Part shown: positions 8,592 to 33,024 of the stretch, one piece after another
Layout of the letters: every line of letters starts with the position of its first letter
How positions within the stretch are numbered: the stretch's first letter is position 1
Virus record (IMG/VR): IMGVR_UViG_3300036770_002544
Coordinates: 10,654 to 74,653 of that record
Origin: a virus
Taxonomy: Duplodnaviria; Heunggongvirae; Uroviricota; Caudoviricetes
DNA length: 64,000 nt
Reading direction: 5' to 3' (one strand)
Made by a program: the position numbers and the translations under genes
Notes under the pieces: generated by a model
The model's input: only the letters and a program-made list of their open reading frames with translations
The model's database searches: none
Told to the model about the DNA's origin: nothing

Positions 8592-8592
8592 A

Positions 8593-9291: not shown

Positions 9292-9366
9292 GTCCCTGTA
9301 GTTCAATGGATAGAACCGGTTCCTCCTAAGAACAAAATATCAGTTCGATTCTGGTCAGGGATACCA
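9292..9366 (+). tRNA. tRNA-Arg(CCT)
   Basis: Acceptor gtccctg/cagggat. D-arm gttcaatggatagaac. Anticodon loop CTCCTAA. T-arm atcag-TTCGATT-ctggt. aCCA. Confidence 0.75.
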
Positions 9367-9371
9367 AGCAT

Positions 9372-9448
9372 GCCCTGGTGGTGGAATTGGCAGACACACT
9401 GCGTTGAGGTCGCAGGTTCTACGGGTTCGAGTCCCGTCTAGGGTACCA
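9372..9448 (+). tRNA. tRNA with anticodon GAG (Leu-decoding) but short variable loop
   Basis: Acceptor gccctgg/ctagggt. Anticodon arm ctgcg-TTGAGGT-cgcag. T-arm acggg-TTCGAGT-cccgt. aCCA. At 77 nt it lacks the class II long arm expected of bacterial tRNA-Leu. Confidence 0.65.
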
Positions 9449-9802
9449 AGTTTTGTAGTAACCAGAGTCCTGTGTAAAAGGTGTTGCGGACGTCATGCGC
9501 TCTTTTTATCGCATGGGTCAATAAAGATCGAAGCGCAAACTAATAAGGTTGTGTCCTTGCCTACTACAGATTAGTTTTGCAAACAATAAAAACGTGTAGG
9601 GGTAATACCCCTTGAAGCTCTGTGCAGAGATGCACATCTTCTATGGATCAGTTGGTGGGATGAGAGGTCCTTCCCTGTTGCCGGTGTCAAGAGTTATCCA
9701 TTGTGGGAGCCGGAGTGCCAACCCAGGTCGATAGTTTACAGCCACACGCCCTAGCGAAACCGGATTGTTTGCAATTTTTTATTGTTGTTGAGAAGAAAAG
9801 AA

Positions 9803-10018
9803 ATGTATAAAATAGCAGAAAAAGAATTTGCCAATCTGGAGTTGGCAATGGCACATGCCAGGCAGTTAAATGAGTTTGTAACTATTGCTGGACCCGACTT
9901 TGAAGTTTGTGGCCGCTTTGGGGTAGATAGCGTTGAACGCGGGCTGTGCCCTGATGGTATTGCATACGATTGGAACAAGGCCAGTCGTACAGGTCGCGTA
10001 CAACGCGAACGAGTCTAA
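9803..10018 (+). CDS. hypothetical small protein
   Basis: ORF following a roughly 330-nt structured noncoding stretch. Weak RBS. Confidence 0.3.
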   Translation: MYKIAEKEFANLELAMAHARQLNEFVTIAGPDFEVCGRFGVDSVERGLCPDGIAYDWNKASRTGRVQRERV

Positions 10019-10108
10019 CGGAGGGTTAACTGGGCTGGGCCCAGCACTGTCTCGAAAACAGATGGACTGTGAAAACGGTTGGAGTTCGATTCTGCCATCC
10101 CTCTTCCA
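10019..10108 (+). tRNA. tRNA-like element (Ser CGA-type loop) with non-canonical T-arm
   Basis: Acceptor ggagggt/tccctct-t-CCA. Hairpin ctgt-CTCGAAA-acag. D region ctggg-ctgggc-cccag. The T-arm does not fold canonically. Confidence 0.3.
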
Positions 10109-10113
10109 ATTTT

Positions 10114-10184
10114 TGGCTCACTCTAGCTGATCTTGCGGGGTCCAAACTCTCAAGTCTCGGGTGCGATTCCTGAAGGGCCAGCCA
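10114..10184 (+). tRNA. tRNA-like element (acceptor plus T-arm only clearly foldable)
   Basis: Acceptor tggctca/agggcca-g-CCA. T-arm tcggg-TGCGATT-cctga. No clear anticodon arm. Confidence 0.3.
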
Positions 10185-10241
10185 TATACCGGTTTACACA
10201 AAACCGTAATATCAAGTATAATATATACTTGTGCAACCAAT

Positions 10242-10318
10242 GCCCCTGTGATGGAATTGGTATACGTGTCGGATTCAAAATCCGAATTTTGCGGGTTCGA
10301 GTCCCGCTGGGGGCACCA
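10242..10318 (+). tRNA. tRNA with anticodon CAA (Leu-decoding), short variable loop
   Basis: Acceptor gcccctg/tgggggc with G:U pairs. Anticodon arm tcgga-TTCAAAA-tccga. T-arm gcggg-TTCGAGT-cccgc. aCCA. Confidence 0.6.
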
Positions 10319-14260: not shown

Positions 14261-14674
14261 ATGCCCTGGATTCAGAACGTTAGCATGAGCGATGTCAAGC
14301 AAGGCTTGCACTTCGACGCCGGTGTTAACAGTATGCTGATCCAAATTGTTGATCCGGCATACGAGTTTCCCGTTCCGTTGAAGAAGTTCAAGGAAGTACA
14401 CCAGTTTGAGTTCTTGGACGTTGAGGCAACGGATAAGGAATTTGAGGAGTTTGCTTGCACACAAGAGCAGGCTGCAGAACTTGTTCGCTTGCTCAAGCAT
14501 GCATTGTCTAATCGTATGAACGTTGTAGTTCACTGCCACGCCGGTATTTGCCGATCGGGTGCAGTCTGCGAAGTGGGTACTATGATGGGGTTCGATGATA
14601 CAGAAGTGTTTCGTGCGCCTAATCTGTTGGTCAAGCATTTGATGATGAAGCAATTAGGATGGACTTATGAATAA
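14261..14674 (+). CDS. protein tyrosine / dual-specificity phosphatase
   Basis: CX5R active-site motif VVHCHAGICRSGAV. SD aaggaaataacATG. Confidence 0.7.
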   Translation: MPWIQNVSMSDVKQGLHFDAGVNSMLIQIVDPAYEFPVPLKKFKEVHQFEFLDVEATDKEFEEFACTQEQAAELVRLLKHALSNRMNVVVHCHAGICRSGAVCEVGTMMGFDDTEVFRAPNLLVKHLMMKQLGWTYE

Positions 14675-14975
14675 AGTAATTCGGGATGGAATGGTTGCAG
14701 TGCTGTACTCTCCCGAACACGGTGCAGGCTGGTGGACCTGGAATACCGAGCACACAGATATGTTGTTTGACCCGGGCATGGTTGGCCTAGTTGAAAAGTA
14801 CGATGTTGAGCAGATGCGTGTTTATGCAGAACTCAAGTGGCCCGATGCTTACTTAGGTGGATTGGACAGCCTACAAATCGAGTGGCTCCCAGAAGGCTCA
14901 AAGTTTATTGTAGAAGAATACGATGGGTTTGAAAGTATTCTTACTATCGAGAACACTGTTTGGATAACAGCATGA
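14667..14975 (+). CDS. hypothetical protein (C-terminus ESIL...W resembles the downstream array family)
   Basis: ATGA start/stop overlap with both neighbours. Confidence 0.45.
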   Translation: MNKVIRDGMVAVLYSPEHGAGWWTWNTEHTDMLFDPGMVGLVEKYDVEQMRVYAELKWPDAYLGGLDSLQIEWLPEGSKFIVEEYDGFESILTIENTVWITA

Positions 14976-15136
14976 AAAACCCTTTGCAGTGGCAATACAA
15001 TGGTGCGGCGCCAATGCAAGTACTCATAGCCTGGTGTGAGCAACACATTCCCGATGAGTATGTTTATCACGGTTGGGAAAGTATTTTGTTTCTAACTGAA
15101 CGTGCAAAGACATTATTTTTGCTGAGGTGGTCATGA
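14972..15136 (+). CDS. LRWS-family small protein, array member 0 (54 aa, below the ORF-track cutoff)
   Basis: Hand translation MKNPLQWQYNGAAPMQVLIAWCEQHIPDEYVYHGWESILFLTERAKTLFLLRWS. ATGA overlap upstream; TGAGGTGGTCATGA junction downstream. Confidence 0.5.
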   Translation: MKNPLQWQYNGAAPMQVLIAWCEQHIPDEYVYHGWESILFLTERAKTLFLLRWS

Positions 15137-15372
15137 AACCCTGTGAACTACAACCAATGATAGTCCGAGCCGTGGAAAGAATAGGAATAAATGATTATTG
15201 GCAACTTCCTCCGGAAGCAAGAGTAATTACCGGCAATCCTAAATATGACGCACAACTTCATTATATGTTAGTTGAGTTTGGGGTGGAAGTAGAGTTAGAT
15301 CGATACGGCATGAAAGATTACCGTGTAGTTGATGAACAAAAATTCATGATGTTTTTGTTGAGGTGGTCATGA
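15133..15372 (+). CDS. LRWS-family small protein, array member 1
   Basis: Ends ...EQKFMMFLLRWS. Junction tgaggtggtcATGa. Confidence 0.6.
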   Translation: MKPCELQPMIVRAVERIGINDYWQLPPEARVITGNPKYDAQLHYMLVEFGVEVELDRYGMKDYRVVDEQKFMMFLLRWS

Positions 15373-15581
15373 CAGCACAATACAGTCGTAGCCGAGATCT
15401 TGTTCATCGTGTGGAAGTGCCACATTCGGGTGGTTGGGTCTGGGGCGAGGATCAAAGGTTTGAATGGTGCAAACAGAACTGCCAGGACGATTATCGTGGC
15501 GCAATGTTTCGCCGAGACCGAACTGTGTGGCATTTTAAATCACAGAAGGATGCTGTGATGTTTGCGCTGAGGTGGTCATGA
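15369..15581 (+). CDS. LRWS-family small protein, array member 2
   Basis: Ends ...QKDAVMFALRWS. Identical junction. Confidence 0.6.
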   Translation: MTAQYSRSRDLVHRVEVPHSGGWVWGEDQRFEWCKQNCQDDYRGAMFRRDRTVWHFKSQKDAVMFALRWS

Positions 15582-15817
15582 CAATACCCGAACATTACAA
15601 CCATCGAGTACAAGTAAAGTTAAAATTGCGAGACATCTTTGAACTTGAACATAGACTCGAGGAATTAAATTATATCCGCGCTTGGTTAGACGAATTAGTA
15701 GAATGGCAACCGGATGCGTTTACGATAAAATATTATGATCGAGGAAATGGTGCTGTAATCGATGTTTGGTTTGCCGATGAACGACATGCTATGATTTGTG
15801 CGTTGAGGTGGTCATGA
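15578..15817 (+). CDS. LRWS-family small protein, array member 3
   Basis: Ends ...ERHAMICALRWS. Identical junction. Confidence 0.6.
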   Translation: MTIPEHYNHRVQVKLKLRDIFELEHRLEELNYIRAWLDELVEWQPDAFTIKYYDRGNGAVIDVWFADERHAMICALRWS

Positions 15818-16014
15818 AATACTGGAACAAAGACAAACGGATTCGCCAGCAGAACTGGTATGCAGTCCCATCGGGTAACAGGCGGCCCTATGCTGACACC
15901 AAACGCGAGTTACAACTATTTGACAGTCCGGGTAAGTTTTATCTATACTACGGCAGTAGCACTATTTGGTTTGAGCGTGAACAAGATGCATTGTGGTGGA
16001 GATTGAAATCATGA
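15814..16014 (+). CDS. LRWS-family small protein, array member 4
   Basis: Ends ...EQDALWWRLKS. ATGA overlap. Confidence 0.55.
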   Translation: MKYWNKDKRIRQQNWYAVPSGNRRPYADTKRELQLFDSPGKFYLYYGSSTIWFEREQDALWWRLKS

Positions 16015-16199
16015 AAGTTTATCAAGTTGCAGGTTATCCAAAGAATCATTATTTTGTCAAAGACTTTCAAGAGTTATTGAACATAATGAGTTGGATGACC
16101 AAGAACGATGTAGGTTACTTGCACGAATCTAGCAGCATACATGGCTATGGGTTTAGTGTTAAAAAGAATTTTGAATGGTTTAGTTTGAAGTGGTTATGA
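16011..16199 (+). CDS. LRWS-family small protein, array member 5
   Basis: Ends ...KNFEWFSLKWL. ATGA overlap. Confidence 0.55.
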   Translation: MKVYQVAGYPKNHYFVKDFQELLNIMSWMTKNDVGYLHESSSIHGYGFSVKKNFEWFSLKWL

Positions 16200-16405
16200 G
16201 TTACGAAGTTGTAATACCGTATGATCCTGCTTGGGAACCACTAGACTGGGCCAAGGAACATTGTCCTAGTTATATTACAAACCGAGCAATTGCTCAAGAA
16301 ACAAAATATGATATAATAGTTCGTGCGTACTATAACGATTACGATGTTGTCTATTATTTCAGCGAAGGAAAGGATGCAACAGCGTTTGCATTGAAGTGGA
16401 AATGA
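16196..16405 (+). CDS. LRWS-family small protein, array member 6
   Basis: Ends ...GKDATAFALKWK. ATGA overlap. Confidence 0.55.
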   Translation: MSYEVVIPYDPAWEPLDWAKEHCPSYITNRAIAQETKYDIIVRAYYNDYDVVYYFSEGKDATAFALKWK

Positions 16406-23784: not shown

Positions 23785-24416
23785 AAAAACTCTATGACTT
23801 TTTATACCAAACACAAGTAGACCCTGCAAATCCTGGGCGTTGGTATACTTTACGTCCAAATCAGCCTTTGCTTGACTGTCTCAGCGAAATGAACATTCGT
23901 TCTTGCAAATTGGAATCATTTGTTACCACCTATAATGATTACAATTATACAAAACAGGCTGCACAGTTCAATATGACTGTAGAAGAAATAAAAAGTTGGA
24001 TGCTTGATCCCGAATATCAGCGATACTCAGACAATGCCAATAGTCGAATTGCTATATTACCCACAGACTTAGAATCACGTATAAGACACGAATTGGCAGA
24101 ATACCTAGGGCTTGTTGAGGATACCTTGCTCATGCGCATTCAAGTACAGGCGCCCGGCGAAATGATTGCTTTGCACCTAGACCCGTTAAAGACAAAACTG
24201 TTTGGCGCAGAGGACGAAGAAATTTTAAGATATGCTTGGTTTTTAGAAGATCAAGCACCCGGACAAATTTGGATCATGGGCGAAACAAATCAACCTGTGT
24301 TTTGGAGGTCTGGGGATTTGGTTTATTTTGACAATACTAAATTACCTCATGCCACTGCCAATGTTGGGTATAACGATCGTTACGTTATGATCATCACTGG
24401 CACAAAGAGCAGTTAA
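23781..24416 (+). CDS. putative 2OG-Fe(II) oxygenase-like (HxD...H) protein
   Basis: ALHLDP and KLPHATANVG motifs. Confidence 0.4.
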   Translation: MKKLYDFLYQTQVDPANPGRWYTLRPNQPLLDCLSEMNIRSCKLESFVTTYNDYNYTKQAAQFNMTVEEIKSWMLDPEYQRYSDNANSRIAILPTDLESRIRHELAEYLGLVEDTLLMRIQVQAPGEMIALHLDPLKTKLFGAEDEEILRYAWFLEDQAPGQIWIMGETNQPVFWRSGDLVYFDNTKLPHATANVGYNDRYVMIITGTKSS

Positions 24417-25813
24417 TCTTCTTCTAACCATGTGTTGTACTCAGATCCTTTTTTGCCTATCTTTGGTATGCGCAATTGAAATTTGAGAGTGTCTCCTTCG
24501 TGCAGTTCGCAATCATGTAACTCGTAATCCCCGATTGTAGTAACTGTACCGTCTTTGGCAATTTTAGTTGCACATGATATTGCATGCCAGTCCTTGTTTA
24601 AGTCAGTCCATAAATCTTGTTCTTGTTTCCTCAGCGAACCTTCGTAAGGAACTTCGTAGCTGTCCGAATGTTGAGCAAATGATATGTAATAGTGAGACCA
24701 ATTAAAGTGAACATTGATCAATACTATCATACCTTTGAGTACCTTGACTTCGGCTAATGCCATGCGCTCTTCTGCAGGAATCCATTGCGGAAAGTCACCT
24801 TCGAGAATAACTCTATCATCAAACATAGATCCGGGTATTGTTGTGCCTGAGTATTTCCAATGTCTGCGTATTTTTACATCTATTCTAGTGTCAGGATCAT
24901 ACACAGATCCTACCAATTTAAATTTACGATAAATTAGATCGTTCCAGTAGGGTTCTCGACGGCCAAACACCACAGTCTTTTGTAGTTTAAGTCCACCTTT
25001 TCTGTGATCCATACAGGTACCTAGATCACTGTGGTTGAATGGATCGTGCCCCCATTCTGAGTTTCCTAAATTTTTAAGTTTGTATCCTTTTTCTTGATAC
25101 ATTAATTTTAGTTCGTCAAAAACATTGCCGTCGGCGCGGCTAGACAACTTTAAAACTTTTTCTGTTACATATAACTCTGCAAATTCTGTTAAAAACTCTC
25201 CTGCAAGGGAACGATTCCAACAAAGCCAACCTGTCTCTGTGCTACCACGGCCATCGTGCCAATCAGGCATAACATACTCTCTGCCCAAGTACGAAACAAC
25301 CTCATTATGAGACGGTGCCATTTTTTCAAGTAAATTGTGAGTTACTTGATCAAAAATAAACACGTCAGCATCAAGCCATATCAATCTATCTGCTGTGGAC
25401 TTTTTGTGTGCAATGTATTGTGCAATCACTTTGTAAGAATATTTTAAAGCATTAGCCGATGACATTGAGATTTGCCCCCAGTTGGTACGAGCTAGCCAAC
25501 CCGAAACATGTGCTGAATCCTGTTCACTAGGGACTAGTCCGGTGCAATCAGGACGCTCCTTCCATTTTTTTCTTGTTGCAGCATACTCTAAATGTTCAAC
25601 ATCAATGTCTAGCACAATCACTCTAGGACTCTCGTGCTCAAACACAAAATCATTGATCACTACATACAAGTTGGTATCTTCAGGAAAATACTTGACAAAG
25701 TTGTCAACAAATGTTTTTCCATATAATTCGTATGCAGTTTTATGAAAACTAGTAACAACATCAAACTTCAATTTGTACTCTCCAAAATTTCCTAGTAGTA
25801 TTGATACCAGCAT
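24413..25813 (-). CDS. putative nucleotide-sugar glycosyltransferase (DxD)
   Basis: WLDADVFIFDQ DxD motif. 466-aa ORF. Confidence 0.45.
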   Translation of the reverse strand: MLVSILLGNFGEYKLKFDVVTSFHKTAYELYGKTFVDNFVKYFPEDTNLYVVINDFVFEHESPRVIVLDIDVEHLEYAATRKKWKERPDCTGLVPSEQDSAHVSGWLARTNWGQISMSSANALKYSYKVIAQYIAHKKSTADRLIWLDADVFIFDQVTHNLLEKMAPSHNEVVSYLGREYVMPDWHDGRGSTETGWLCWNRSLAGEFLTEFAELYVTEKVLKLSSRADGNVFDELKLMYQEKGYKLKNLGNSEWGHDPFNHSDLGTCMDHRKGGLKLQKTVVFGRREPYWNDLIYRKFKLVGSVYDPDTRIDVKIRRHWKYSGTTIPGSMFDDRVILEGDFPQWIPAEERMALAEVKVLKGMIVLINVHFNWSHYYISFAQHSDSYEVPYEGSLRKQEQDLWTDLNKDWHAISCATKIAKDGTVTTIGDYELHDCELHEGDTLKFQLRIPKIGKKGSEYNTWLEED

Positions 25814-26666
25814 TGTCTATTTTACGATGTAGTACATATCTGTTGTCCCAGATTACTATTTGGTCTGGACGCCATCTGTGTTGATATATCCATGCAGGAT
25901 TGTTTAGCTGTTGCTTCAACATGTTAACAATAGCATCGCTTTCGGCCTCTGACAAGTTCAACAGCCGAGGATGATCTTTTGGACTAAAATTCAACCAATC
26001 ATTGTTTTTTACAATTTTATCAACAAACGGCGTTGGAATATGAGTTTTTAATTTAAAAATTGCAGCCACAACATCTTTAATGTTGCCGGACTTTAGTGCA
26101 TGCTGCATTGCTAATGACAAGTAATAATGATGATTCCTATAAAATGTACTAGTGTGTTCTATCTCCAACTGTGACAGCAGATTTTTGATCGGATCACTTA
26201 GCGAATCGTAAATTCCTTTGAGATTGCAAAAACTTGTATCCCCTAATAGCTCATTACCATCAGACTTGCTAAACTTTACAGTAGCGATTCCAATCATTCG
26301 TTTGTCAGTGTAGCTTGCGCCATCTTGATGCCAGTCGTTTAGATCTATAGACTTTGGTAGCCCCGGGGCGGTTACAGAAGTAAGATCGTCTACCCCAATG
26401 TCGGATCCAGTGTAGTAATCAAGTTCTGTAGTTGGTGTTATTTTGTAATAGGACACCTGAGGAAACAACTTTCCAATTTTTTGAGCATAGTCAACCAGAC
26501 ATTGTTGAGTATTAATGCTAGCGTTTTGAACTACTAATACCTTGTGTTTTTTCAAAAGGTCAATGACCTGTGATGGTTCTAGACTTTGTGCATCAAGTTG
26601 AGCCCCAAAACTCCAGTTTAATGTTTGCATCACAATATTTAACACAGCCAATGTTGCTTTAAACAA
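25761..26666 (-). CDS. TauD/TfdA-family 2OG-Fe(II) dioxygenase
   Basis: WHQDGASY and VIWDNRYVLHRKI...R motifs. Confidence 0.6.
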   Translation of the reverse strand: MFKATLAVLNIVMQTLNWSFGAQLDAQSLEPSQVIDLLKKHKVLVVQNASINTQQCLVDYAQKIGKLFPQVSYYKITPTTELDYYTGSDIGVDDLTSVTAPGLPKSIDLNDWHQDGASYTDKRMIGIATVKFSKSDGNELLGDTSFCNLKGIYDSLSDPIKNLLSQLEIEHTSTFYRNHHYYLSLAMQHALKSGNIKDVVAAIFKLKTHIPTPFVDKIVKNNDWLNFSPKDHPRLLNLSEAESDAIVNMLKQQLNNPAWIYQHRWRPDQIVIWDNRYVLHRKIDNAGINTTRKFWRVQIEV

Positions 26667-26684
26667 AAGTATTAATTTTTAGAG

Positions 26685-26713
26685 TTGACTGAATATTCGT
26701 CGTTTGCTATAAT
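26685..26713 (+). promoter_or_regulatory. sigma70-type promoter (TTGACT-N17-TATAAT, TGn extended -10)
   Basis: ttgactgaatattcgtcgtttgctataat. SD aaaggag follows. Confidence 0.55.
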
Positions 26714-26743
26714 ACACACATGTTAACGCAAAAGGAGTCAACA

Positions 26744-26920
26744 ATGAGCAAGATGAGTGAACTGGCACTGGACATTGAGTACCTTCTCAAAGAAGGCCGG
26801 AGTTTTGCGCAAATTGCACGTGAGCTAGAAATCCCAGTGCAATTTGTAGTTGAGGCCGCAGACGTCATCGAACGCGACAACGATCAAGACTGTAGCCCTT
26901 TTGCAACAATCAACAGTTGA
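26744..26920 (+). CDS. hypothetical small acidic protein
   Basis: SD aaaggagtcaacaATG. Confidence 0.45.
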   Translation: MSKMSELALDIEYLLKEGRSFAQIARELEIPVQFVVEAADVIERDNDQDCSPFATINS

Positions 26921-26989
26921 CTGATAATTCACAATCCTATACAATATAGGCTTAGTTAAACAATTTCCCCACCACCGAAAGGCACTGCA

Positions 26990-28075
26990 ATGAGCGATAC
27001 CCGCACCGTAACTTCCGTCCAAGCCCGCAAGTCTATTCTGACTGCGTTCAAAGTCAAACGTCCCATCTTCCTGTGGGGTCCTCCTGGTATCGGCAAGTCC
27101 GAACTGGTTGAAGGTATTACCAAGGATCTTGGCGGCGTCATGTATGACCTGCGTCTGGGTCAAATGGAACCCACTGACATTCGTGGCATTCCGTTTTATA
27201 ACAAAGAAAATGGCAAGATGGACTGGGCTGCTCCTATTGACTTGCCCGATGCTGAAACTGCTGCTCAGTATCCTGTTGTCGTCCTGTTCTTGGACGAAAT
27301 GAACTCGGCCCCTGCCTCAGTGCAATCGGCTGCCTACCAGCTGATCCTGAACCGCCGAATTGGCAAGTACGTACTGCCCGACAACGTGGTTATCGTTGCA
27401 GCCGGTAACCGTGAAAGCGACAAAGGCGTTACTTTCCGCATGCCAACTCCACTGGCAAACCGTTTCTTGCACCAAGAAATGAAGGTTGACTTCCCGTCTT
27501 GGCAGGAATGGGCTGTGCAAAACAACATCCACAAGGACGTGGTTGGTTACTTGAGTTTTGCCAAGCAAGATCTGTATGACTTTGATGCCAAGAGCTCAAG
27601 CCGTGCGTTTGCTACTCCACGTAGCTGGACTTTCGTGAGCCAGTTGCTGAACGACGAAGCACTGGATGACGACACTGCTACCAACCTTGTGGCTGGTACT
27701 GTGGGCGAAGGCCTTGCTGTTAAGTTCATGGCACACCGCAAGATTGCAGGTCGCATGCCTAGCCCAACTGACATTCTCAAAGGCAAGGTCAAGGACTTGA
27801 ACGTCAAGGAAGTGTCGGCTATGTACTCGCTGGTTATTTCCATGTGCTACGAACTCAAGGCTGCTGTGGAAGCCAAGATGGACATGAAAGAGTTCCATGA
27901 AATGGCAGACAACTTCTTTGCCTACATGATGAAGAACTTTGAAACTGAGTTGGTTGTTATGGGAGCAAGGATTGCACTTACGACCTATAATTTGCCATTC
28001 CAACCTACCAAGCTCAAGAACTTCGACGAGTTCCACCAGCGTTTTGGTAAGTACATTTTGCAGGCTAGCGCCTAA
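26990..28075 (+). CDS. MoxR/CobS-like AAA+ ATPase
   Basis: Walker A FLWGPPGIGKS, Walker B VVVLFLDEMN, sensor VIVAAGNRE. Confidence 0.75.
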   Translation: MSDTRTVTSVQARKSILTAFKVKRPIFLWGPPGIGKSELVEGITKDLGGVMYDLRLGQMEPTDIRGIPFYNKENGKMDWAAPIDLPDAETAAQYPVVVLFLDEMNSAPASVQSAAYQLILNRRIGKYVLPDNVVIVAAGNRESDKGVTFRMPTPLANRFLHQEMKVDFPSWQEWAVQNNIHKDVVGYLSFAKQDLYDFDAKSSSRAFATPRSWTFVSQLLNDEALDDDTATNLVAGTVGEGLAVKFMAHRKIAGRMPSPTDILKGKVKDLNVKEVSAMYSLVISMCYELKAAVEAKMDMKEFHEMADNFFAYMMKNFETELVVMGARIALTTYNLPFQPTKLKNFDEFHQRFGKYILQASA

Positions 28076-28113
28076 TTGATGGTGGTGGGGGGCAGTGGCA
28101 ACACTGCCCCTTT

Positions 28114-28449
28114 TTGTTTATGCACTATAAAATCACAAAAATGGATGGTAGGTACAGCCACTATGGCTACACTTATCTGCTTGAATTTTCAAAGCATGTT
28201 TATACTGGCACTGGCGTGTTAGACTTTGATCGTAGCCGACGTTGGTTTAACGAACACTTTGGGTGGAGTCAAGATGTTGAGACTCGTGCCAAAATGAAGG
28301 AAAATCTGTACTACCACAAAGGTGCTTATACCCCCGAAGACATCAATCCTGTGTGGGCTTATGCAGTTAAGTACGGCGATTATCGAATCTATGTAGATAA
28401 CGAAAAGACCTTGAGTTGGTTTGTAATGGCACATCCATGCGCGGAATGA
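28114..28449 (+). CDS. hypothetical protein
   Basis: ORF. Overlaps the next ORF. Confidence 0.35.
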   Translation: MFMHYKITKMDGRYSHYGYTYLLEFSKHVYTGTGVLDFDRSRRWFNEHFGWSQDVETRAKMKENLYYHKGAYTPEDINPVWAYAVKYGDYRIYVDNEKTLSWFVMAHPCAE

Positions 28450-28670
28450 CACACAGATTTGACTTTCGAGCCCAGGACATTGATCCGTTGCCTCGAATAA
28501 AGTGGTGCCGGGAAAATCTTGGACCGCGTGGTCAACGCTGGGACTTTGATGGTGGGCGTGGTATAACTATATACATCCGGGATCAAGCAGACGTTGATCT
28601 CTACGAAAAAACCTGGAGATTTTGGAATGTCCTCAAAGGTGATTGTAAAGAAGAATCTCGTAATATTTAG
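28416..28670 (+). CDS. hypothetical protein
   Basis: ORF. Overlaps both neighbours, so a possible frameshift. Confidence 0.3.
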   Translation: MVCNGTSMRGMTHRFDFRAQDIDPLPRIKWCRENLGPRGQRWDFDGGRGITIYIRDQADVDLYEKTWRFWNVLKGDCKEESRNI

Positions 28671-28926
28671 AAAGCGTTCTGATTGGGAAGAAATCTGGCA
28701 ACGCATAAAGCAAGAGTACGGTGCCAAAATTACCATCAGTTATGTGTGCCGTCGAGAGCTTGGATTTACAGTTAGAACCCATACCGAATGGATTCAGTTC
28801 GATATTAGTGGTGGCCGCCCTCGCTACTATGCAGAGGAGCAAATTCACCTGGACTTCTACAACGAAAGTACACAGAGTTGGTTCTTGCTACGCTACTTAA
28901 ACAATTCTGCAGGCGCAGATGCATAA
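28594..28926 (+). CDS. hypothetical protein
   Basis: ORF. Confidence 0.35.
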   Translation: MISTKKPGDFGMSSKVIVKKNLVIFRKRSDWEEIWQRIKQEYGAKITISYVCRRELGFTVRTHTEWIQFDISGGRPRYYAEEQIHLDFYNESTQSWFLLRYLNNSAGADA

Positions 28927-28997
28927 AACGTCAAAAGAATCGCTGTAAAACGTCCGAACTACCAAAAATGTATACTTTTTTAGTACTAGGTTTTTGG

Positions 28998-29026
28998 TTG
29001 ACCCAAAATTCGCCTTTTGCTATAAT
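28998..29026 (+). promoter_or_regulatory. strong sigma70-type promoter, repeat copy 1 (TTGACC-N17-TATAAT)
   Basis: ttgacccaaaattcgccttttgctataatata. Near-identical to the copies at 29968 and 30294. Confidence 0.6.
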
Positions 29027-29052
29027 ATAAGCATAGTAAGAAGGAGTTAGTA

Positions 29053-29217
29053 ATGGACAACCCCTACACCAACAACCCAACTGAGCGCGGTCCGGAAGTT
29101 TATGTCAAGCCTGTTCTGGCTAAAGATTTTCAAGATGAGGCTTGGCAGCGCTTCAAGCAGATCATGGAAGCGGATACCGAAATCATTGAAGCAATCAAAC
29201 GTTTGAAGGATAAGTGA
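29053..29217 (+). CDS. small hypothetical protein (54 aa, below the ORF-track cutoff)
   Basis: SD aaggag. Hand translation MDNPYTNNPTERGPEVYVKPVLAKDFQDEAWQRFKQIMEADTEIIEAIKRLKDK. Confidence 0.45.
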   Translation: MDNPYTNNPTERGPEVYVKPVLAKDFQDEAWQRFKQIMEADTEIIEAIKRLKDK

Positions 29218-29218
29218 A

Positions 29219-29413
29219 ATGATTGAAAACGGAATGCCCATTTACATCATTCAGATCAACATGGCAGAACCCAATCAAAATCCCGAGTGGGACAACATGG
29301 GCGTCTATCAAGACTACAATCAAGCACTGAAGCACATTGAATGGTGCAAGGGCGAATACGGCACCGAGATCGAGTTCCGTGTTGATGTGCAATCGTTTTA
29401 CGCAAAGGCTTAA
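29219..29413 (+). CDS. small hypothetical protein
   Basis: ATG 1 nt after the previous stop. Confidence 0.4.
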   Translation: MIENGMPIYIIQINMAEPNQNPEWDNMGVYQDYNQALKHIEWCKGEYGTEIEFRVDVQSFYAKA

Positions 29414-29414
29414 T

Positions 29415-29669
29415 ATGAACGAACGAATTAAACAACTTGCTGAACAGGCAGGACTTAAAGTCGAATCGTGGATGACTAATCCGCCCAAGCCTTTTCAGAT
29501 TCTTGGTAGCACTGAACAGTTTGAAAAGTTCGCCGAGTTGATTGTTCGGGAATGTGCTAACGCCGCAGACATGGCACAAGACGCTGGTTGCGAATATGCC
29601 GGTGACTATGTTGCTGAGTACATGGGCTATGGTCAAGAAGAAGGCGTAACAGAATGGAGAGCAAAATGA
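29415..29669 (+). CDS. hypothetical protein, paralog of 31623-31853
   Basis: MNERIKQLAEQAGL...FEKFAELIVRECANAADMAQ versus MNPHIAKLAEQAAQ...IQRFAELIVQDCVNIANTAE. Confidence 0.5.
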   Translation: MNERIKQLAEQAGLKVESWMTNPPKPFQILGSTEQFEKFAELIVRECANAADMAQDAGCEYAGDYVAEYMGYGQEEGVTEWRAK

Positions 29670-29971
29670 GCATCCAAACCGTAGCACAAAATCTGCGTAA
29701 CACAATCGCCGGCAAGGAACAGCACCTGAAAACTTTGAATAGGACTCTGGCTACTGCGGATCTCAACGACACTGAACGCACTGTAATCAGAACCACTAGT
29801 ATGTTTCTGGAAGTGAATCTAGATGAACTCCGGCGTATCCTTGCTGATGTGGAGGCATGTGAATCTCCAGCAAATCCTACTTGCACAGTGCAAGACTGGA
29901 TTACTAACCCGGATCGTATGGGTGGGCAGTTTACACAAGAAGAAATTGATAACGCAAATCGCTGGATTTGA
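29666..29971 (+). CDS. hypothetical protein
   Basis: ORF; alternative ATG at 29654. Confidence 0.4.
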   Translation: MSIQTVAQNLRNTIAGKEQHLKTLNRTLATADLNDTERTVIRTTSMFLEVNLDELRRILADVEACESPANPTCTVQDWITNPDRMGGQFTQEEIDNANRWI

Positions 29972-29996
29972 CCTAAAATTCGCCTTCTGCTATAAT
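29968..29996 (+). promoter_or_regulatory. strong sigma70-type promoter, repeat copy 2
   Basis: ttgacctaaaattcgccttctgctataatatacacataac. Confidence 0.6.
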
Positions 29997-30024
29997 ATAC
30001 ACATAACACAACCAAGGACACACA

Positions 30025-30297
30025 ATGGCTTTGCCCAAAGAAGTTACACTTACTAAAGACGGCGGCAACTTTTATCGAGCGATGGCTTTTCACTATCTTG
30101 TGGTCGCAGTAGCCATTGTCCCGGTCTTGGCCCTGCTACTGCTGGCTATCATCAATCCTTTTTGGTTCCGCGACAGTGCCTTTAACTGGGCTGAACGCCG
30201 AGTAAACCAACTGTCACGCTGGCGAAATCTTGTGAAGTATCGCATCTACTTGGGCACTGATCCTGAACTGTGGCATGCACTCAAAGACCGCAATTGA
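30025..30297 (+). CDS. small membrane protein
   Basis: Hydrophobic helix LVVAVAIVPVLALLLLAIINPFWF. Confidence 0.45.
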   Translation: MALPKEVTLTKDGGNFYRAMAFHYLVVAVAIVPVLALLLLAIINPFWFRDSAFNWAERRVNQLSRWRNLVKYRIYLGTDPELWHALKDRN

Positions 30298-30322
30298 CCA
30301 ATAAATCGCCTTCTGCTATAAT
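30294..30322 (+). promoter_or_regulatory. strong sigma70-type promoter, repeat copy 3
   Basis: ttgaccaataaatcgccttctgctataatatacacataacgc. Confidence 0.6.
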
Positions 30323-30349
30323 ATACACATAACGCAACAAAGGACACCA

Positions 30350-31621
30350 ATGACTGCCACTACTGCTAACAAAGACGACAAGCAAAAATTCGCTAACTTG
30401 CTGGGTCCAACTGACCCTAAAATTGACCGCGAAGTTCGCGAAAAACTGATTACTGCCCGCGTGGGTTTGTTGCTTCGTGCCAGTTTCTTTGGCAACTTGG
30501 CTACCCGTCTCAAACTGACCAACGCCGACGAATGGTGTTCTACTGCGGCCACTGATGGTCGTAACTTCTATTACAACAGCCGATTCATTCAAATGCTTCG
30601 TCCCAAAGAGATCGAATTCTTGTTTGGTCACGAGGTTCTGCACTGCGTTTATGATCACTTTGGTCGCCGCGGCGATCGCGATCCGCAACTGTTCAACATT
30701 GCCAACGACTTTGCTGTCAACGCAGACTTGATCAAGCACCGTGTGGGCGAAAAGATTACCACAGTGCCTTGCCTGCACGATACCAAGTACGATGGTATGA
30801 GTTCCGAAGAAATCTACGATCAACTGTACGAAAACGCCAGCAAGATCAATCTCAGCGACCTGCTGGACAAGATGATCGACGAGCACTTGGACGGCGAAGG
30901 TGATAGCGAGGGCGAAGGTGATAGCGAGGGCGAAGGCAAAGGTCGCCCCAAGCTCAGCGAAGAAGAAAAGCGCCAGATCCGCGACGAGATCAAGGAAGCC
31001 ATGCTGGCAGCGGCTCAAACTGTCGACGGTGCAGGCAACATTCCTGCTGGCGTTATGCGCATGATCAAGGAGCTTACTGAGCCCCAAATGAACTGGCGTG
31101 AACTGCTACGCATGAACTTGGAGTCTACTATCAAGTCGGACTTTACTTGGATGCGAGCAAGCCGACGCGGCTGGCACATGGATGCTGTCATGCCTGGCAT
31201 GAAGAACGACGAAATGATTGACATTGCTATTGCAATTGATACTTCGGGCTCAATTGGCGAAAAGATGCTCAAAGATTTCCTCAGCGAAATCCAAGGTATC
31301 ATGGACTCGTTCCCTGCATACAAGATCCATATTGTTAGCTTTGATACTGACACTTACAATCCTGCTCAGTACGATAGCGATAACTTGGATTCTATTGTTG
31401 ACTACGAACCTGCTGGCGGCGGAGGTACCGACTTTGACGCCATCTATCGCTATCTCAAGGACGAGGAAATCCAACCTCGACGCTTGGTAGTGTTTACAGA
31501 CGGCTACCCATTTGGTAGCTGGGGCGATGAAGAATACTGTGACGTGACTTGGATCTTGCACGGTACTACTACCATTGTTCCACCTTGGGGTGCTTATGCC
31601 TACTACGAGGAAAAGAAGTAA
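30350..31621 (+). CDS. VWA-domain protein with N-terminal HExxH metallopeptidase-like domain (DUF2201/CobT-like partner of the MoxR ATPase)
   Basis: HEVLH zinc-binding motif. MIDAS DTSGS. Acidic linker GEGDSEGEGDSEGEG. Confidence 0.65.
   Translation: MTATTANKDDKQKFANLLGPTDPKIDREVREKLITARVGLLLRASFFGNLATRLKLTNADEWCSTAATDGRNFYYNSRFIQMLRPKEIEFLFGHEVLHCVYDHFGRRGDRDPQLFNIANDFAVNADLIKHRVGEKITTVPCLHDTKYDGMSSEEIYDQLYENASKINLSDLLDKMIDEHLDGEGDSEGEGDSEGEGKGRPKLSEEEKRQIRDEIKEAMLAAAQTVDGAGNIPAGVMRMIKELTEPQMNWRELLRMNLESTIKSDFTWMRASRRGWHMDAVMPGMKNDEMIDIAIAIDTSGSIGEKMLKDFLSEIQGIMDSFPAYKIHIVSFDTDTYNPAQYDSDNLDSIVDYEPAGGGGTDFDAIYRYLKDEEIQPRRLVVFTDGYPFGSWGDEEYCDVTWILHGTTTIVPPWGAYAYYEEKK
30895..30950 (+). repeat. 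in-frame tandem 18-nt repeat encoding a GEGDSE linker
   Basis: ggcgaaggtgatagcgag x2, then a partial copy. Confidence 0.6.
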
Positions 31622-31622
31622 T

Positions 31623-31853
31623 ATGAATCCGCATATTGCCAAACTTGCCGAACAGGCAGCACAAGAATCGTTTGATCCCGAAAACGATACCGCACTGGAG
31701 GTATCAGACGATGAAGTGTCCTACCAAATTCCAGAAGGATTTATCCAGCGTTTTGCTGAGTTGATTGTACAGGACTGTGTGAATATTGCTAACACCGCAG
31801 AACCGTATCAGTCAGCTGATCTTATACAAAAGCATTTTGGAGTTGAATCATGA
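31623..31853 (+). CDS. hypothetical protein, paralog of 29415-29669
   Basis: See 29415. Confidence 0.5.
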   Translation: MNPHIAKLAEQAAQESFDPENDTALEVSDDEVSYQIPEGFIQRFAELIVQDCVNIANTAEPYQSADLIQKHFGVES

Positions 31854-32026
31854 TTAAGATGTTTACAATGTGGCTTATGTTGAGTGCCGCAATCGGGCTT
31901 GGTATCATAGCATTTCGGCAAATGTCGGGCAAGGAGCAATGGCAATTGACAAAATTAGTTGCCTATGCTACAATGTGCTCACTAATTGCTGTAGTGTTAT
32001 TGGGCATTATGGTTATTTTGTTTTAA
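31850..32026 (+). CDS. small membrane peptide (58 aa, below the ORF-track cutoff)
   Basis: ATGA overlap with the preceding stop. Two hydrophobic segments. Confidence 0.35.
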   Translation: MIKMFTMWLMLSAAIGLGIIAFRQMSGKEQWQLTKLVAYATMCSLIAVVLLGIMVILF

Positions 32027-32121
32027 AGGATGTATATGATCAATGACGTTTGGCTTAGGCCGCTGTATTTTGTTCTTGGTTTTGCATTTTGTTTCTTTCT
32101 TTTTTCTACAGGAGTTCTTTA

Positions 32122-32916
32122 ATGAAAAGCGTTTTTAAAATTGGTTTTATCGCGGCCGCGGTTGCTCTCGCTACCGGTTGTACTCGTATCGAAACTGGTG
32201 AGGTTGGTGTCCGTGTTGGCTTTGACAAGCAAGTTAAGTCTGGCGAACTGCTACCCGGCTCGTTCAACCAAGTGCTAATTGGTGATGTGTTGACATTTCC
32301 TGTTAAGGACGTTAATGTGGTCCTAGAGAATATGACTCCCGTGGCCAAAGACAACAGCACCATGAAAGAAATGGATGCTGTGGTTGTTTATAACATCAAC
32401 CCACAGAGTGTTGCAGAGTTGTATTCAACCAAGAACAAGGCATTCCACGCTGATGCCAAAGGCGACACTTATGTGATGTATAACTACATCGTCCAAAATG
32501 CTCGTAACGCCATTTACAAGGCTGCACGTAAGTACGAAGCATTGGATATGGCAGACAATCGCAGTGACATGGAAAACTTCATCAAGGAAGAAATCGTTCG
32601 TAACCTTGCTGAAGAAAAACTGGACGGTAGTATCACTATCAGTCAAGTACTAATCCGTAACGTAGTGCCTGCTGATTCGGTTGTGGAAAGTGCCAACGCA
32701 CTGGTTCGTAGTAAAAACGAACTCAAACAAAAAGAAGTTGAAGTGAAGACTGCCGAAGCAGAATCACGCCGTATGGCTGCTCTTGCTAACAACAGCCAAA
32801 GTTCTATCCAGTTCATGCAGGCACAGGCTATGCTGAACATCTCCGAAGGTATCAAGAATGGTAAAGTGCAGACCATTGTTGTTCCTAGCAACTTCACTGC
32901 ACTAATGACCAAGTAA
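32122..32916 (+). CDS. SPFH/band-7 domain lipoprotein
   Basis: Lipobox LATGC after the signal peptide MKSVFKIGFIAAAVA. Stomatin/prohibitin-like core with C-terminal coiled coil. Confidence 0.55.
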   Translation: MKSVFKIGFIAAAVALATGCTRIETGEVGVRVGFDKQVKSGELLPGSFNQVLIGDVLTFPVKDVNVVLENMTPVAKDNSTMKEMDAVVVYNINPQSVAELYSTKNKAFHADAKGDTYVMYNYIVQNARNAIYKAARKYEALDMADNRSDMENFIKEEIVRNLAEEKLDGSITISQVLIRNVVPADSVVESANALVRSKNELKQKEVEVKTAEAESRRMAALANNSQSSIQFMQAQAMLNISEGIKNGKVQTIVVPSNFTALMTK

Positions 32917-33024
32917 TATGAACTCGGACAAGGCTTTCTTTGGCACCATCCTGGCAATGATGGCCTTGTTGTTTGGTCATCCTGGTACTGCATTGTTAAT
33001 CTTTATTTTAGGGTGTATATTGTA

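What the first reader, a model, noticed from the sequence alone, without database searches (positions are those of the whole stretch)
26990..31853. MoxR/CobS-like ATPase and VWA+HExxH partner split by a cassette of three near-identical strong promoters and two paralogous small genes
The AAA+ ATPase (26990-28075) and its expected VWA/metallopeptidase-motif partner (30350-31621) are separated by 2.3 kb. That gap holds three sigma70-type promoters of nearly identical sequence over roughly 45 nt (28998, 29968, 30294; ttgacc-N17-tgctataatata), each driving a short gene. The paralogs 29415-29669 and 31623-31853 (MN..I..LAEQA...F.ELIV..C.N.A) each sit directly downstream of one cassette unit. The promoter repetition suggests copy-and-paste amplification of an early-expression module. 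The function of the small proteins is unknown. The VWA gene also carries an acidic GEGDSE tandem repeat.
Basis: seen in the sequence. Interest (0 to 1): 0.65.

Follow-up and report, generated by a model that had tools for sequence, protein, structure and literature searches.

The report
Promoter-flanked gene cassettes splitting a phage chaperone pair
In an uncultivated freshwater jumbo phage, the short spacer between two partner genes (a MoxR-type ATPase and a protease-VWA co-chaperone) holds swappable small genes, several of them bounded by copies of one promoter; this resembles shuffling already described in T4-like phages, so it is well documented here but not a new principle.

Summary
The sequence features are real. 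A MoxR-type AAA+ ATPase (26990-28075) and a zincin(HExxH)+VWA protein (30350-31621) lie 2.3 kb apart, with three sigma70-consensus promoters at 28998, 29968 and 30294.

Comparison with 80 related IMG/VR loci (contigs up to ~343 kb) changes the interpretation:
- The promoters belong to a clade-wide stereotyped promoter/leader family: 377 sites on the gene strand, 5 on the other.
- The ATPase-VWA interval varies from 94 bp to 6.3 kb and draws on roughly 90 ORF families.
- Both genes always keep their own promoter, and the ATPase keeps its terminator.
- P30294 is the conserved VWA promoter.
- P29968 is a true duplicate of it (49/54 nt, leader included). It brackets a one-gene insertion, g30025, whose homologues lie about 20-30 kb upstream of the pair on the same contigs in three relatives.
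- Four indels in the clade end inside promoter copies.

This matches the "mobile regulatory cassette" (PeSL) shuffling of T4-like phages, but without the stem-loop. The two paralogs are real, yet neither sits directly behind a promoter. They belong to a very large uncharacterised phage family. The ATPase/VWA pair was already described for jumbo phages. Moderate-to-low interest.

The parts
26685..26713 (+). Promoter of the family (TTGACT-N17-TATAAT with TG) heading the small HTH-like gene
26741..26920 (+). Small HTH-like gene upstream of the ATPase in the relatives where it is detected. Its TGA stop lies inside the -35 of the ATPase promoter.
   Evidence: no Pfam hit
26917..26945 (+). The ATPase's own promoter (TTGACT-N17-TACAAT)
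   Evidence: orthologous promoters in relatives
26990..28075 (+). MoxR-type AAA+ ATPase (Walker A GPPGIGKS, Walker B LFLDE)
   Evidence: Pfam AAA_5/AAA_3 and PHROG 1297 at 3e-97; 51% identity to the PA5oct ATPase; nearest solved structures are midasin AAA domains
28087..28119 (+). Intrinsic terminator (11-bp GC stem plus T-run) directly after the ATPase and abutting the ATG of the next gene
   Evidence: dG -21.6, z -3.2; a hairpin plus T-run is present at this position in the 42 distinct relative junctions examined
28120..28449 (+). g28120, long member of the 'FxLRW' small-protein family; the usual first resident of the gap (62 of 80 loci)
28446..28670 (+). Probable third FxLRW-type paralog (uncertain gene call; ATGA overlap with g28120)
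   Evidence: tblastn hit only in L027; the 3' end repeat D2 is shared with the two neighbouring genes
28594..28926 (+). g28594 (the true start is probably ATG 28627), FxLRW-type; the usual last resident before the promoter cassettes (55 of 80 loci)
28935..28997 (+). Conserved non-coding left flank (GCTGTAAAACG...CAAAAATGTATAC) with a weak AU hairpin and U-run
28998..29052 (+). P28998 promoter and leader; orthologue of the first-cassette promoter of L018, L049 and L051
29053..29217 (+). g29053, 54-aa ORF with a strong SD; no homologue found in the related loci
29219..29413 (+). g29219, 64-aa ORF; weak homologue next to the par-g29654 pair in L104/L105
29415..29669 (+). parA, member of the MNERIxELAEQAG...EKFAELIVRECA...HFGV family
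29654..29971 (+). g29654 (probable start ATG 29666). It is linked to a par gene in several different genomic contexts. Its TGA stop lies inside the -35 of P29968.
29968..30024 (+). P29968 promoter and leader; duplicate of the VWA promoter/leader (49/54 nt)
30025..30297 (+). g30025, 90-aa single-pass membrane protein; an inserted one-gene cassette. Its TGA stop lies inside the -35 of P30294.
30294..30349 (+). P30294, the conserved promoter and leader of the VWA gene
30350..31621 (+). Zincin-like metallopeptidase (HEVLH) fused to a VWA/MIDAS domain (DTSGS); partner of the ATPase
   Evidence: Pfam DUF2201_N 3e-38, DUF2201 1.5e-15 and VWA; PHROG 1314; weak match to minigluzincin MJ1213
30893..30936 (+). 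18-nt perfect tandem repeat inside a hypervariable acidic G/D/E linker
31623..31853 (+). parB, second par-family gene, starting 1 nt after the VWA stop
31850..32026 (+). 58-aa two-TM protein (ATGA overlap with parB) containing internal promoter 31946

Best explanation
The window comes from an uncultivated jumbo phage of a large clade known only from metagenome contigs (up to ~343 kb), distantly related to PA5oct and Phosso.

The MoxR-type ATPase and the zincin-VWA protein are a conserved functional pair. However, they are always transcribed separately: promoter, ATPase, terminator, then promoter, VWA.

That terminator-promoter junction is a hyperplastic 'landing pad' with two kinds of content:
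1. A promoter-less array of FxLRW-family small genes directly behind the terminator.
2. One or more cassettes, each headed by the clade's stereotyped sigma70-type promoter plus an A/C-rich leader.

Because this roughly 55-nt promoter/leader is repeated many times per genome, homologous recombination between copies inserts, deletes and swaps the genes between them. This may happen within a genome, between co-infecting relatives, or through excised circles.

In this window, P30294 is the ancestral VWA promoter. P29968 is the duplicate left when the one-gene cassette g30025 was inserted. In three relatives the g30025 homologue lies in another variable region about 20-30 kb upstream of the pair. 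The block P28998...P30294 is a promoter-bounded indel relative to L005-type genomes.

Shown here: the sequence anatomy, the variability, the duplication, the indel end-points and the relocation. Inferred: promoter activity with host RNA polymerase, the recombination mechanism, and every protein function. The small proteins are presumably non-essential host-takeover or anti-defence accessories. The ATPase/VWA pair is presumably a chaperone/protease pair for assembly, as proposed by Iyer et al. 2021.
For: Promoter family:
- In 1.27 Mb of related loci plus the window there are 377 strong sites on the gene strand and 5 on the other.
- 229 of 293 distinct sites have an SD plus start codon, mostly 20-34 nt after the -10.
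- In 83 of 293 the TGA of TTGAC serves as the stop codon of the upstream ORF.
- The consensus from 286 sites is ggTTGACCAatAAttc...tT.TGcTATAATA..acaTa.

Variability:
- The gap runs from 94 bp to 6.3 kb.
- It holds 0-18 ORFs from 91 blastp families, 51 of them singletons. This is a rough greedy ORF call that includes at least one spurious family.

Separate transcription units:
- A VWA promoter is visible upstream of the gene in nearly all 80 relatives, including the five compact ones.
- A terminator follows the ATPase at all 42 distinct junctions examined, and also in PA5oct and Phosso.

Duplication:
- P29968 vs P30294 is 49/54 nt, against a family mean of 27 and a 99th percentile of 42.8.
- The leader alone is 23/25, against a mean of 8.7.
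- The best matches of P29968 in other genomes are VWA promoters.

Promoter-bounded indels:
- The single promoter of L005/L009 has the left flank of P28998 (52/70; shuffles mean 31, max 47) and a VWA-type leader on its right (26/32 and 24/32 to the P29968 and P30294 leaders, 20/32 to P28998's).
- The left flank of P29968 (end of g29654) is orthologous to the left flank of the VWA promoter in L049/L051.
- L042 carries a different 104-aa ORF in the same slot, between promoter copies.
- L049 has a 1.1-kb block between two copies of the promoter that is single in L051.

Relocation:
- g30025 homologues lie about 20-30 kb upstream of the pair on the same contigs as L034, L021 and L043. There they have no promoter and sit next to (in L099, about 0.4 kb from) the homologue of window ORF 14667-14975.
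- In L095/L098 they occur as promoter-flanked cassettes.
- The parA-g29654 pair occurs in at least four other contexts.

Literature:
- PA5oct depends on host RNAP and has TTGAC/TATAATA promoters (PMC7318152).
- The PeSL model of promoter-mediated shuffling (PMC2839356).
Against: - No transcription data exist for this phage, so promoter activity and timing are inferred.
- Family promoters are on average no more alike within a genome than between genomes (27.0 vs 26.7 of 54). Recombination between copies is therefore occasional, not a homogenising force, and 50% identity over 54 nt is a poor substrate for homologous recombination in general.
- Not all indels end in promoters. The SGNH-hydrolase gene present in L057 and absent in L068 is a clean gene-boundary insertion with only TAATG microhomology. 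The parA indel between L042 and L051 is also at gene boundaries.
- The direction of each event (insertion or deletion) cannot be determined.
- Intergenic regions diverge fastest, so alignment breaks tend to fall there anyway.
Confidence: 0.7

Rival explanations
1. Convergence only. The three promoters look alike because selection drives every strong promoter of this phage towards one optimal sequence for the host RNA polymerase. The genes between them arrived by illegitimate recombination, and the repeats play no part in the rearrangements.
For: Most of the shared 32 nt is the clade consensus. There is no within-genome excess of similarity overall. Some indels end at gene boundaries with 5-nt microhomology.
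Against: P29968 and P30294 share 23 of 25 leader positions that are not constrained in the family (mean 8.7; 99th percentile of within-locus pairs 20). Four independent indels have both end-points inside promoter/leader copies, with flank homology switching exactly there.
Confidence: 0.15
2. First reader's model. A local early-expression module (promoter plus small paralogous gene) was amplified by copy-and-paste inside the ATPase-VWA operon.
For: There is one real promoter/leader duplication. Two paralogous small genes lie in the region.
Against: - The genes directly behind the three promoters (g29053, g30025 and VWA) are unrelated to each other.
- The paralogs are 417 nt and 1.3 kb from the nearest upstream promoter.
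- parB-type genes abut the VWA stop in only 11 of 65 distinct loci.
- The par family has more than 7,900 database members and forms arrays elsewhere.
- P28998 and P30294 each have positional orthologues in relatives, so they were not generated locally.
- The ATPase and VWA genes are not an operon (terminator).
Confidence: 0.05
3. The repeats are remnants or ends of a mobile genetic element (MITE, IS or homing-endonuclease cassette) rather than promoters.
For: In PA5oct the same gap contains a homing endonuclease gene. N4-like Axy10 has an annotated HNH gene nearby.
Against: - There are no inverted terminal repeats around the cassettes; only the direct promoter repeat was found.
- No transposase or endonuclease domain was detected in the seven gap ORFs screened against Pfam and PHROGs.
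- The strand bias is extreme (377 vs 5), and the spacing to an SD and start codon is fixed.
- The -35, extended -10 and -10 are the most conserved columns.
Confidence: 0.03
4. The gap residents are functional parts of the MoxR-VWA system (clients, adaptors or regulators), and that is why they accumulate there.
For: g28120 and g28594 homologues occupy the gap in 62 and 55 of 80 loci. The same junction has been invaded independently in PA5oct, an N4-like phage and a Vibrio jumbo phage. A par gene abuts the VWA stop in 11 of 65 distinct loci.
Against: Five relatives, together with Phosso, Atu_ph07, XaC1, ph0011 and S-TIM54, have no gene between the pair. Gap contents are unrelated between lineages. 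FxLRW and par genes also form arrays far from the pair.
Confidence: 0.07

Closest known systems
PeSL (promoter-early stem-loop) mobile regulatory cassettes of T4-like phages (Arbiol et al. 2010, PMC2839356; Comeau et al. 2014, PMC4122927)
   Same: - Repeated, strongly conserved sigma70-consensus promoters with an SD and start codon, extending over tens of nt.
- Concentrated in hyperplastic regions immediately upstream of ORFans.
- The stop codon of the upstream gene lies next to or in the element.
- Indels and replacements between relatives are bounded by copies, leaving one chimeric copy.
- The elements also occur next to a few conserved genes with unusual plasticity.
   Different: - A different phage lineage: PA5oct/Rak2-like jumbo phages from metagenomes.
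- Two of the three elements here have no stem-loop and no AT-rich upstream tract, because the upstream ORF runs into the -35.
- The terminator sits once, after the ATPase, rather than in each element.
- The conserved part extends downstream into the 5' leader.
- No experimental evidence for promoter activity or mini-circles.
MoxR AAA+ ATPase with a metallopeptidase-vWA co-chaperone in group 2.2 jumbo phages (Iyer et al. 2021, PMC7824862); MoxR-vWA of Acidianus two-tailed virus
   Same: The same two-gene pair and domain architecture: an AAA_5/AAA_3 ATPase, and an N-terminal zincin fused to a VWA domain with a MIDAS motif. It occurs in jumbo phages including Atu_ph07 and PA5oct. The PA5oct ATPase carries an 'ESI-MS/MS' note in its GenBank record.
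   Different: Here the pair is separated by 2.3 kb and seven to eight genes, and each gene has its own promoter. Function is untested in any of these phages; the proposed role in virion assembly and processing is inference.
Phage morons (promoter-gene-terminator insertions between conserved genes; from my own knowledge of the lambdoid phage literature)
   Same: Independently transcribed accessory genes inserted between two conserved genes without disturbing them.
   Different: Here the promoters are near-copies of the neighbour's own promoter and mark the recombination joints. The cassettes lack their own terminators.
CobS/CobT cobaltochelatase-like genes of cyanophages
   Same: An AAA+ ATPase of the MoxR/CobS clade paired with a VWA protein.
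   Different: The match to the 'porphyrin biosynthesis' PHROG 249 is marginal (1.5e-6, against 3e-97 for PHROG 1297). The partner has a zincin domain and DUF2201, not CobT.

Membership tests
PeSL mobile regulatory cassette | Strong sigma70-consensus promoter (-35, about 17 nt, -10) followed by an SD and start codon | tested here: met
   11/12 hexamer matches plus a TG extended -10 at all three sites; an SD and ATG lie 25-29 nt after the -10
PeSL mobile regulatory cassette | Stable stem-loop (terminator/attenuator) within or next to the promoter | tested here: not met
   P29968 and P30294: no structure upstream or inside (z -0.3 to +1.1). P28998: only a weak AU hairpin (z -1.5). The GC-rich terminator occurs once, after the ATPase.
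PeSL mobile regulatory cassette | AT-rich tract upstream of the -35 | tested here: inconclusive
   Present at P28998 (T-runs). At P29968 and P30294 the upstream sequence is coding DNA. The clade consensus shows only weak a/t preference and 'gg' before the -35.
PeSL mobile regulatory cassette | Located in hyperplastic regions, upstream of ORFans | tested here: met
   The gap varies from 94 bp to 6.3 kb, with about 91 ORF families of which 51 are singletons
PeSL mobile regulatory cassette | Indels or replacements between relatives bounded by copies of the element | tested here: met
   Four cases. Counter-examples at gene boundaries also exist.
PeSL mobile regulatory cassette | Demonstrated promoter and terminator activity, and excised mini-circles | not testable with these tools
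   Needs reporter assays, TSS mapping and PCR on phage DNA
MoxR-type AAA+ ATPase | AAA_5/AAA_3 domain above the Pfam cut-off with Walker A and Walker B motifs | tested here: met
   AAA_5 28.7 bits (cut-off 22) and AAA_3 27.7 bits (cut-off 27); GPPGIGKS and LFLDE are visible in the translation
MoxR-type AAA+ ATPase | Genomic association with a VWA-domain partner | tested here: met
   Co-occurrence in about 800 phage records with matching genus counts. The genes are adjacent or overlapping in five cultured phages (Phosso, Atu_ph07, XaC1, ph0011, S-TIM54) and in five clade members.
Zincin-VWA co-chaperone (DUF2201_N + DUF2201) | N-terminal HExxH metallopeptidase-like domain and a C-terminal VWA domain with MIDAS DxSxS..T..D | tested here: met
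   DUF2201_N 132 bits and DUF2201 57.8 bits; HEVLH, DTSGS, GGGTD and FTDG are present in the translation. Catalysis not tested.
CobS/CobT cobaltochelatase | CobS-specific ATPase family and a CobT partner | tested here: not met
   No CobS or CobT Pfam or NCBIfam hit; PHROG 249 scores only 1.5e-6
Transposable element / MITE | Terminal inverted repeats, target-site duplications, transposase | tested here: not met
   Only the direct promoter repeat was found. The three short imperfect inverted pairs lie inside ORFs. No transposase domain was detected.

The most novel reading that the evidence does not exclude
The promoter/leader repeats could act as an integrase-free cassette-exchange system in a large clade of jumbo phages known only from metagenomes. 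They would move small accessory genes between hyperplastic regions, for example from the 9.7-17 kb region of this window into the ATPase|VWA junction. Under this reading the terminator-promoter junction inside the MoxR-VWA pair is a preferred landing pad, reused independently in PA5oct-like, N4-like and Vibrio jumbo phages. That reuse might arise because the inserted small proteins (the FxLRW and par families, both very large and uncharacterised) work with, or are timed with, the chaperone pair.
Probability: 0.2. Interest if true: 0.5.

Novelty: new member of a known kind. Interest (0 to 1): 0.3.

Why it matters
- It extends promoter-mediated modular shuffling, so far documented for T4-like phages, to an abundant, uncultivated clade of roughly 320-345 kb phages known from metagenome contigs.
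- It gives a clean natural experiment. One conserved junction is sampled in 80 genomes with 0 to 18 inserted genes, which is useful for studying how phages acquire and test accessory genes.
- It shows that the MoxR/zincin-VWA pair is transcribed as two units. This matters for anyone trying to assign the pair a function or a temporal class.
- It flags two very large uncharacterised small-protein families as typical cargo.
- It flags a propagated mis-annotation of the zincin-VWA protein as 'HNH endonuclease'.

Tried and rejected
- Megablast of the region against 50,697 phage records found nothing. An exact-protein lookup of the ATPase also found nothing. The source genome is therefore not in those collections.
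- Test for within-genome homogenisation of promoters was negative: 27.0 vs 26.7 of 54. I dropped 'concerted evolution' as a general explanation.
- I looked for PeSL-type stem-loops at the three promoters. None at two of them, and a weak one at the third.
- Rfam scan of 26000-33000 found nothing credible.
- Function of the paralogs: no hit at the thresholds used in Pfam, or for the two window copies in PHROGs. The AF2 model (pLDDT 78) had no PDB fold match better than E = 0.2 and TM about 0.35; the KH-domain hits are not convincing.
- The FxLRW family has no Pfam family.
- NCBIfam gives no name for the ATPase or the VWA protein.
- I considered whether parB is a fixed third component of the pair and rejected it: it abuts VWA in only 11 of 65 distinct loci.
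- PA5oct's gap genes are not homologous to this window's.
- P29968 may be a chimera, with its 5' half like P28998 and its 3' half like P30294. Only two diagnostic positions support this, so I do not claim it.

Full report
**What is in the sequence**

The region is densely coded on the + strand. The elements, in order, are:
- Promoter 26685, then a small HTH-like gene (26741-26920).
- Promoter 26917, then the ATPase (26990-28075).
- A strong intrinsic terminator at 28087-28112 (dG -21.6, z -3.2).
- Three overlapping small genes without a consensus promoter: 28120-28449, 28446-28670 (uncertain) and 28594-28926.
- A conserved non-coding block, then promoter 28998.
- Four tightly packed genes: 29053-29217, 29219-29413, parA 29415-29669 and 29654/29666-29971.
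- Promoter 29968, then one gene for a 90-aa membrane protein (30025-30297).
- Promoter 30294, then the zincin-VWA gene (30350-31621).
- parB (31623-31853), then a 58-aa two-TM protein.

The three promoters match a 32-nt consensus with 1, 0 and 2 mismatches, where none is expected by chance. At 26917, 29968 and 30294 the stop codon of the upstream gene is the TGA inside the -35 hexamer TTGAC. The 18-nt GEGDSE repeat is real. It lies in an acidic linker that is hypervariable in length and sequence across the clade, so it is ordinary slippage in a low-complexity spacer.

**Identity of the two large genes**

The ATPase is a MoxR-type AAA+ protein. It scores above the Pfam cut-offs for AAA_5 and AAA_3 and matches PHROG 1297 at 3e-97. 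Its nearest solved relatives are midasin AAA modules. The partner has a DUF2201_N metallopeptidase-like domain (3e-38, HEVLH) and a DUF2201/VWA domain with an intact MIDAS motif. It also shows a faint match to the minigluzincin MJ1213.

The two proteins hit 859 and 808 phage records, with almost identical genus distributions. The pair was described for 'group 2.2' jumbo phages by Iyer et al. 2021 (PMC7824862). They call it a MoxR/vWA chaperone/co-chaperone pair with an N-terminal metallopeptidase, and propose a role in virion assembly and processing. 'CobS-like' is not supported. The PHROG/GenBank label 'HNH endonuclease' for the VWA protein appears to be a propagated error.

**Where the window comes from**

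The window carries 26 tRNA genes. It has no close match among sequenced phages. PA5oct (51%/45% amino-acid identity) and Phosso are the nearest cultured relatives. IMG/VR holds at least 80 loci with 74-83% identical VWA proteins, on contigs of up to about 343 kb. These contigs represent a large clade of jumbo phages with no cultured member.

**The split is a hypervariable junction**

Across the 80 loci the ATPase-VWA distance runs from 94 bp to 6.3 kb. The interval holds 0 to 18 ORFs from about 91 blastp families, 51 of them singletons. That count comes from a rough greedy ORF call and includes at least one spurious family.

Five relatives have the genes adjacent. So do Phosso, Atu_ph07, XaC1 and Escherichia phage ph0011, and in cyanophage S-TIM54 the two genes overlap. 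Other lineages have been invaded independently:
- PA5oct: three small TM proteins plus a homing endonuclease.
- An N4-like phage: two small ORFs.
- A Vibrio jumbo phage: one 503-aa gene.

A GC-rich hairpin plus T-run follows the ATPase at all 42 distinct junctions examined and, in the compact form, in L003 and L053. A consensus promoter is visible before the VWA gene in nearly all 80 relatives. PA5oct has the terminator, and Phosso has both elements. The pair is therefore two transcription units joined by a terminator-promoter junction, and new genes land inside that junction.

**The promoters**

Fourteen strong sigma70-type sites lie on the + strand of the window and none on the - strand. In 1.27 Mb of window plus related loci the count is 377 against 5. 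Of 293 distinct sites, 229 have an SD and start codon, mostly 20-34 nt downstream. In 83 the -35 TGA terminates the upstream ORF.

The clade consensus is ggTTGACCAatAAttc...tT.TGcTATAATA..acaTa. Most of what the three window promoters share is this consensus. PA5oct depends on host RNA polymerase and has promoters with TTGAC and TATAATA boxes (PMC7318152). This supports, but does not prove, that these sites are functional promoters read by host polymerase. Whether they are 'early' cannot be decided from sequence.

**What is copied and what is not**

Pairs of family promoters share on average 27 of 54 nt, both within and between genomes. There is thus no general amplification or homogenisation.

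P29968 and P30294 share 49/54 nt, above the 99th percentile of 42.8. This includes 23/25 leader positions that are otherwise free to vary. The best matches of P29968 in other genomes are their VWA promoters. P29968 is therefore a duplicate of the VWA promoter and leader. P28998 shares only the core with them (38/54, spacer 15/17). Its best matches are the promoters at the equivalent position in L018, L049 and L051.

**Indel end-points**

Four indels end inside promoter/leader copies:
1. L005/L009 have a single promoter before VWA. Its left flank is the left flank of P28998 (52/70 matches, against 21-26 for the other two promoters; shuffles mean 31, max 47). Its right side is a VWA-type leader: 26/32 and 24/32 to the P29968 and P30294 leaders, against 20/32 to P28998's. 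The window block of about 29030-30320 is therefore an indel bounded by promoter copies.
2. In L049 and L051 the end of the g29654 homologue runs straight into the VWA promoter. In the window that same flank runs into P29968, followed by g30025 and then P30294.
3. L042 has a different 104-aa ORF in that slot, again between two promoter copies. Both copies match the single L051 promoter.
4. L049 has a 1.1-kb block between two copies of a promoter that is single in L051.

Not every indel behaves this way. An SGNH-hydrolase gene in L057 and the parA indel between L042 and L051 sit at plain gene boundaries.

**Relocation of the cargo**

Homologues of g30025 lie about 20-30 kb upstream of the pair on the same contigs as L034, L021 and L043. 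There they have no promoter and sit next to (in L099, about 0.4 kb from) the homologue of window ORF 14667-14975. In L095 and L098 they appear as promoter-flanked cassettes. The parA-g29654 pair turns up in at least four other neighbourhoods. The window has only one copy of each. The cargo of this gap therefore circulates between hyperplastic regions.

**The paralogs**

parA and parB are true but distant paralogs (34% identity). They belong to a family with the signature MNERIxELAEQAG...EKFAELIVRECA...IxEHFGV. The family has 58 distinct members in the related loci, arrays of up to ten copies, and more than 7,900 database hits. It has no Pfam family, and its named database entries are almost all 'hypothetical protein'. 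An AlphaFold model (pLDDT 78) has no convincing fold relative. A family member abuts the VWA stop in only 11 of 65 distinct loci, so it is not a fixed partner of VWA. Neither paralog lies directly behind a promoter.

**Comparison with known systems, and verdict**

The closest described phenomenon is the PeSL 'mobile regulatory cassette' of T4-like phages (PMC2839356, PMC4122927). PeSLs are conserved sigma70 promoters in hyperplastic regions that bound indels and are proposed to mediate modular shuffling. The elements here behave in the same way. They fail one defining feature, the stem-loop, and they extend into the leader instead. They work like PeSLs without being strict members. No transposon features are present.

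The finding is real and now well explained. The principle and the gene pair are both already in the literature. What is new is the lineage, the clean 80-genome view of one junction, and the two large uncharacterised cargo families.

Noticed in passing
window 28120-28926 and 15095-16405; L042 3340-6762; L059, L030, L048 gaps; L002 4652-4969: A large 'FxLRW' family of 50-110-aa proteins (W..C..N.G...W...F.F..E.DA..F.LRW at the C-terminus) forms promoter-less tandem arrays with overlapping stop/start codons. Two to three copies lie in this gap, seven or more in some relatives, and a second array lies at 15.1-16.4 kb in the window. There is no Pfam family, and no PHROG hit for the two window copies screened. 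A probable member follows the VWA gene in Sinorhizobium phage Phosso.
   Followed up: partly
window 29415-29669, 31623-31853; L025 993-4139; L027 9266-11219; L047 7580-10399: The par family (MNERIxELAEQAG...EKFAELIVRECA...HFGV) has more than 7,900 database members, almost all labelled hypothetical, with arrays of up to 10 copies. The AF2 model (pLDDT 78) has no fold match. It is often linked to a g29654-like gene.
   Followed up: partly
window 28087-28122 and the equivalent site in the 42 distinct relative junctions examined: The ATPase terminator hairpin plus T-run abuts the ATG of the next gene (5-15 nt away, with no visible Shine-Dalgarno sequence). The hairpin sequence differs between relatives, but many copies contain GGGCTGTG. 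How the downstream genes are transcribed and translated is unclear.
   Followed up: partly
window 26917, 29968, 30294; 83 of 293 promoters in related loci: The TGA inside the -35 hexamer TTGAC doubles as the stop codon of the upstream ORF, so gene ends and promoters are fused with zero intergenic DNA.
   Followed up: yes
window 28935-28975; L005 5135-5185; L018 6860-7065; L044 6990-7165: A conserved non-coding block (GCTGTAAAACG...CAAAAATGTATAC) lies upstream of the first cassette promoter. It is about 230 nt long in L018 and L044. There is no Rfam match, and its function is unknown.
   Followed up: no
window 2455-10318: An array of 26 tRNA genes on the + strand, interspersed with small ORFs and promoters.
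   Followed up: no
window 24413-26666 (- strand) and 32122-32916: A TauD-family dioxygenase (25761-26666) and an unassigned 466-aa protein lie on the opposite strand just upstream. A conserved SPFH/Band-7 lipoprotein lies downstream of the pair.
   Followed up: no
window 26741-26920: A small HTH-like protein (RSFAQIARELEIP) with its own family promoter sits immediately upstream of the ATPase in the relatives where a homologue is detected. It may be a regulator.
   Followed up: no
PHROG 1314; GenBank records NC_071039.1, NC_042013.1, NC_054971.1 and others: The zincin-VWA protein is widely annotated as 'HNH endonuclease' or 'homing endonuclease'. Its domains (DUF2201_N plus VWA) do not support that label.
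   Followed up: partly
window 31946-31974: A consensus promoter (TTGACA-N17-TACAAT with TG) lies inside the 58-aa TM gene. It is conserved in L044, and a similar promoter inside the homologous gene is seen in L025 and L030. It presumably drives the SPFH gene.
   Followed up: no
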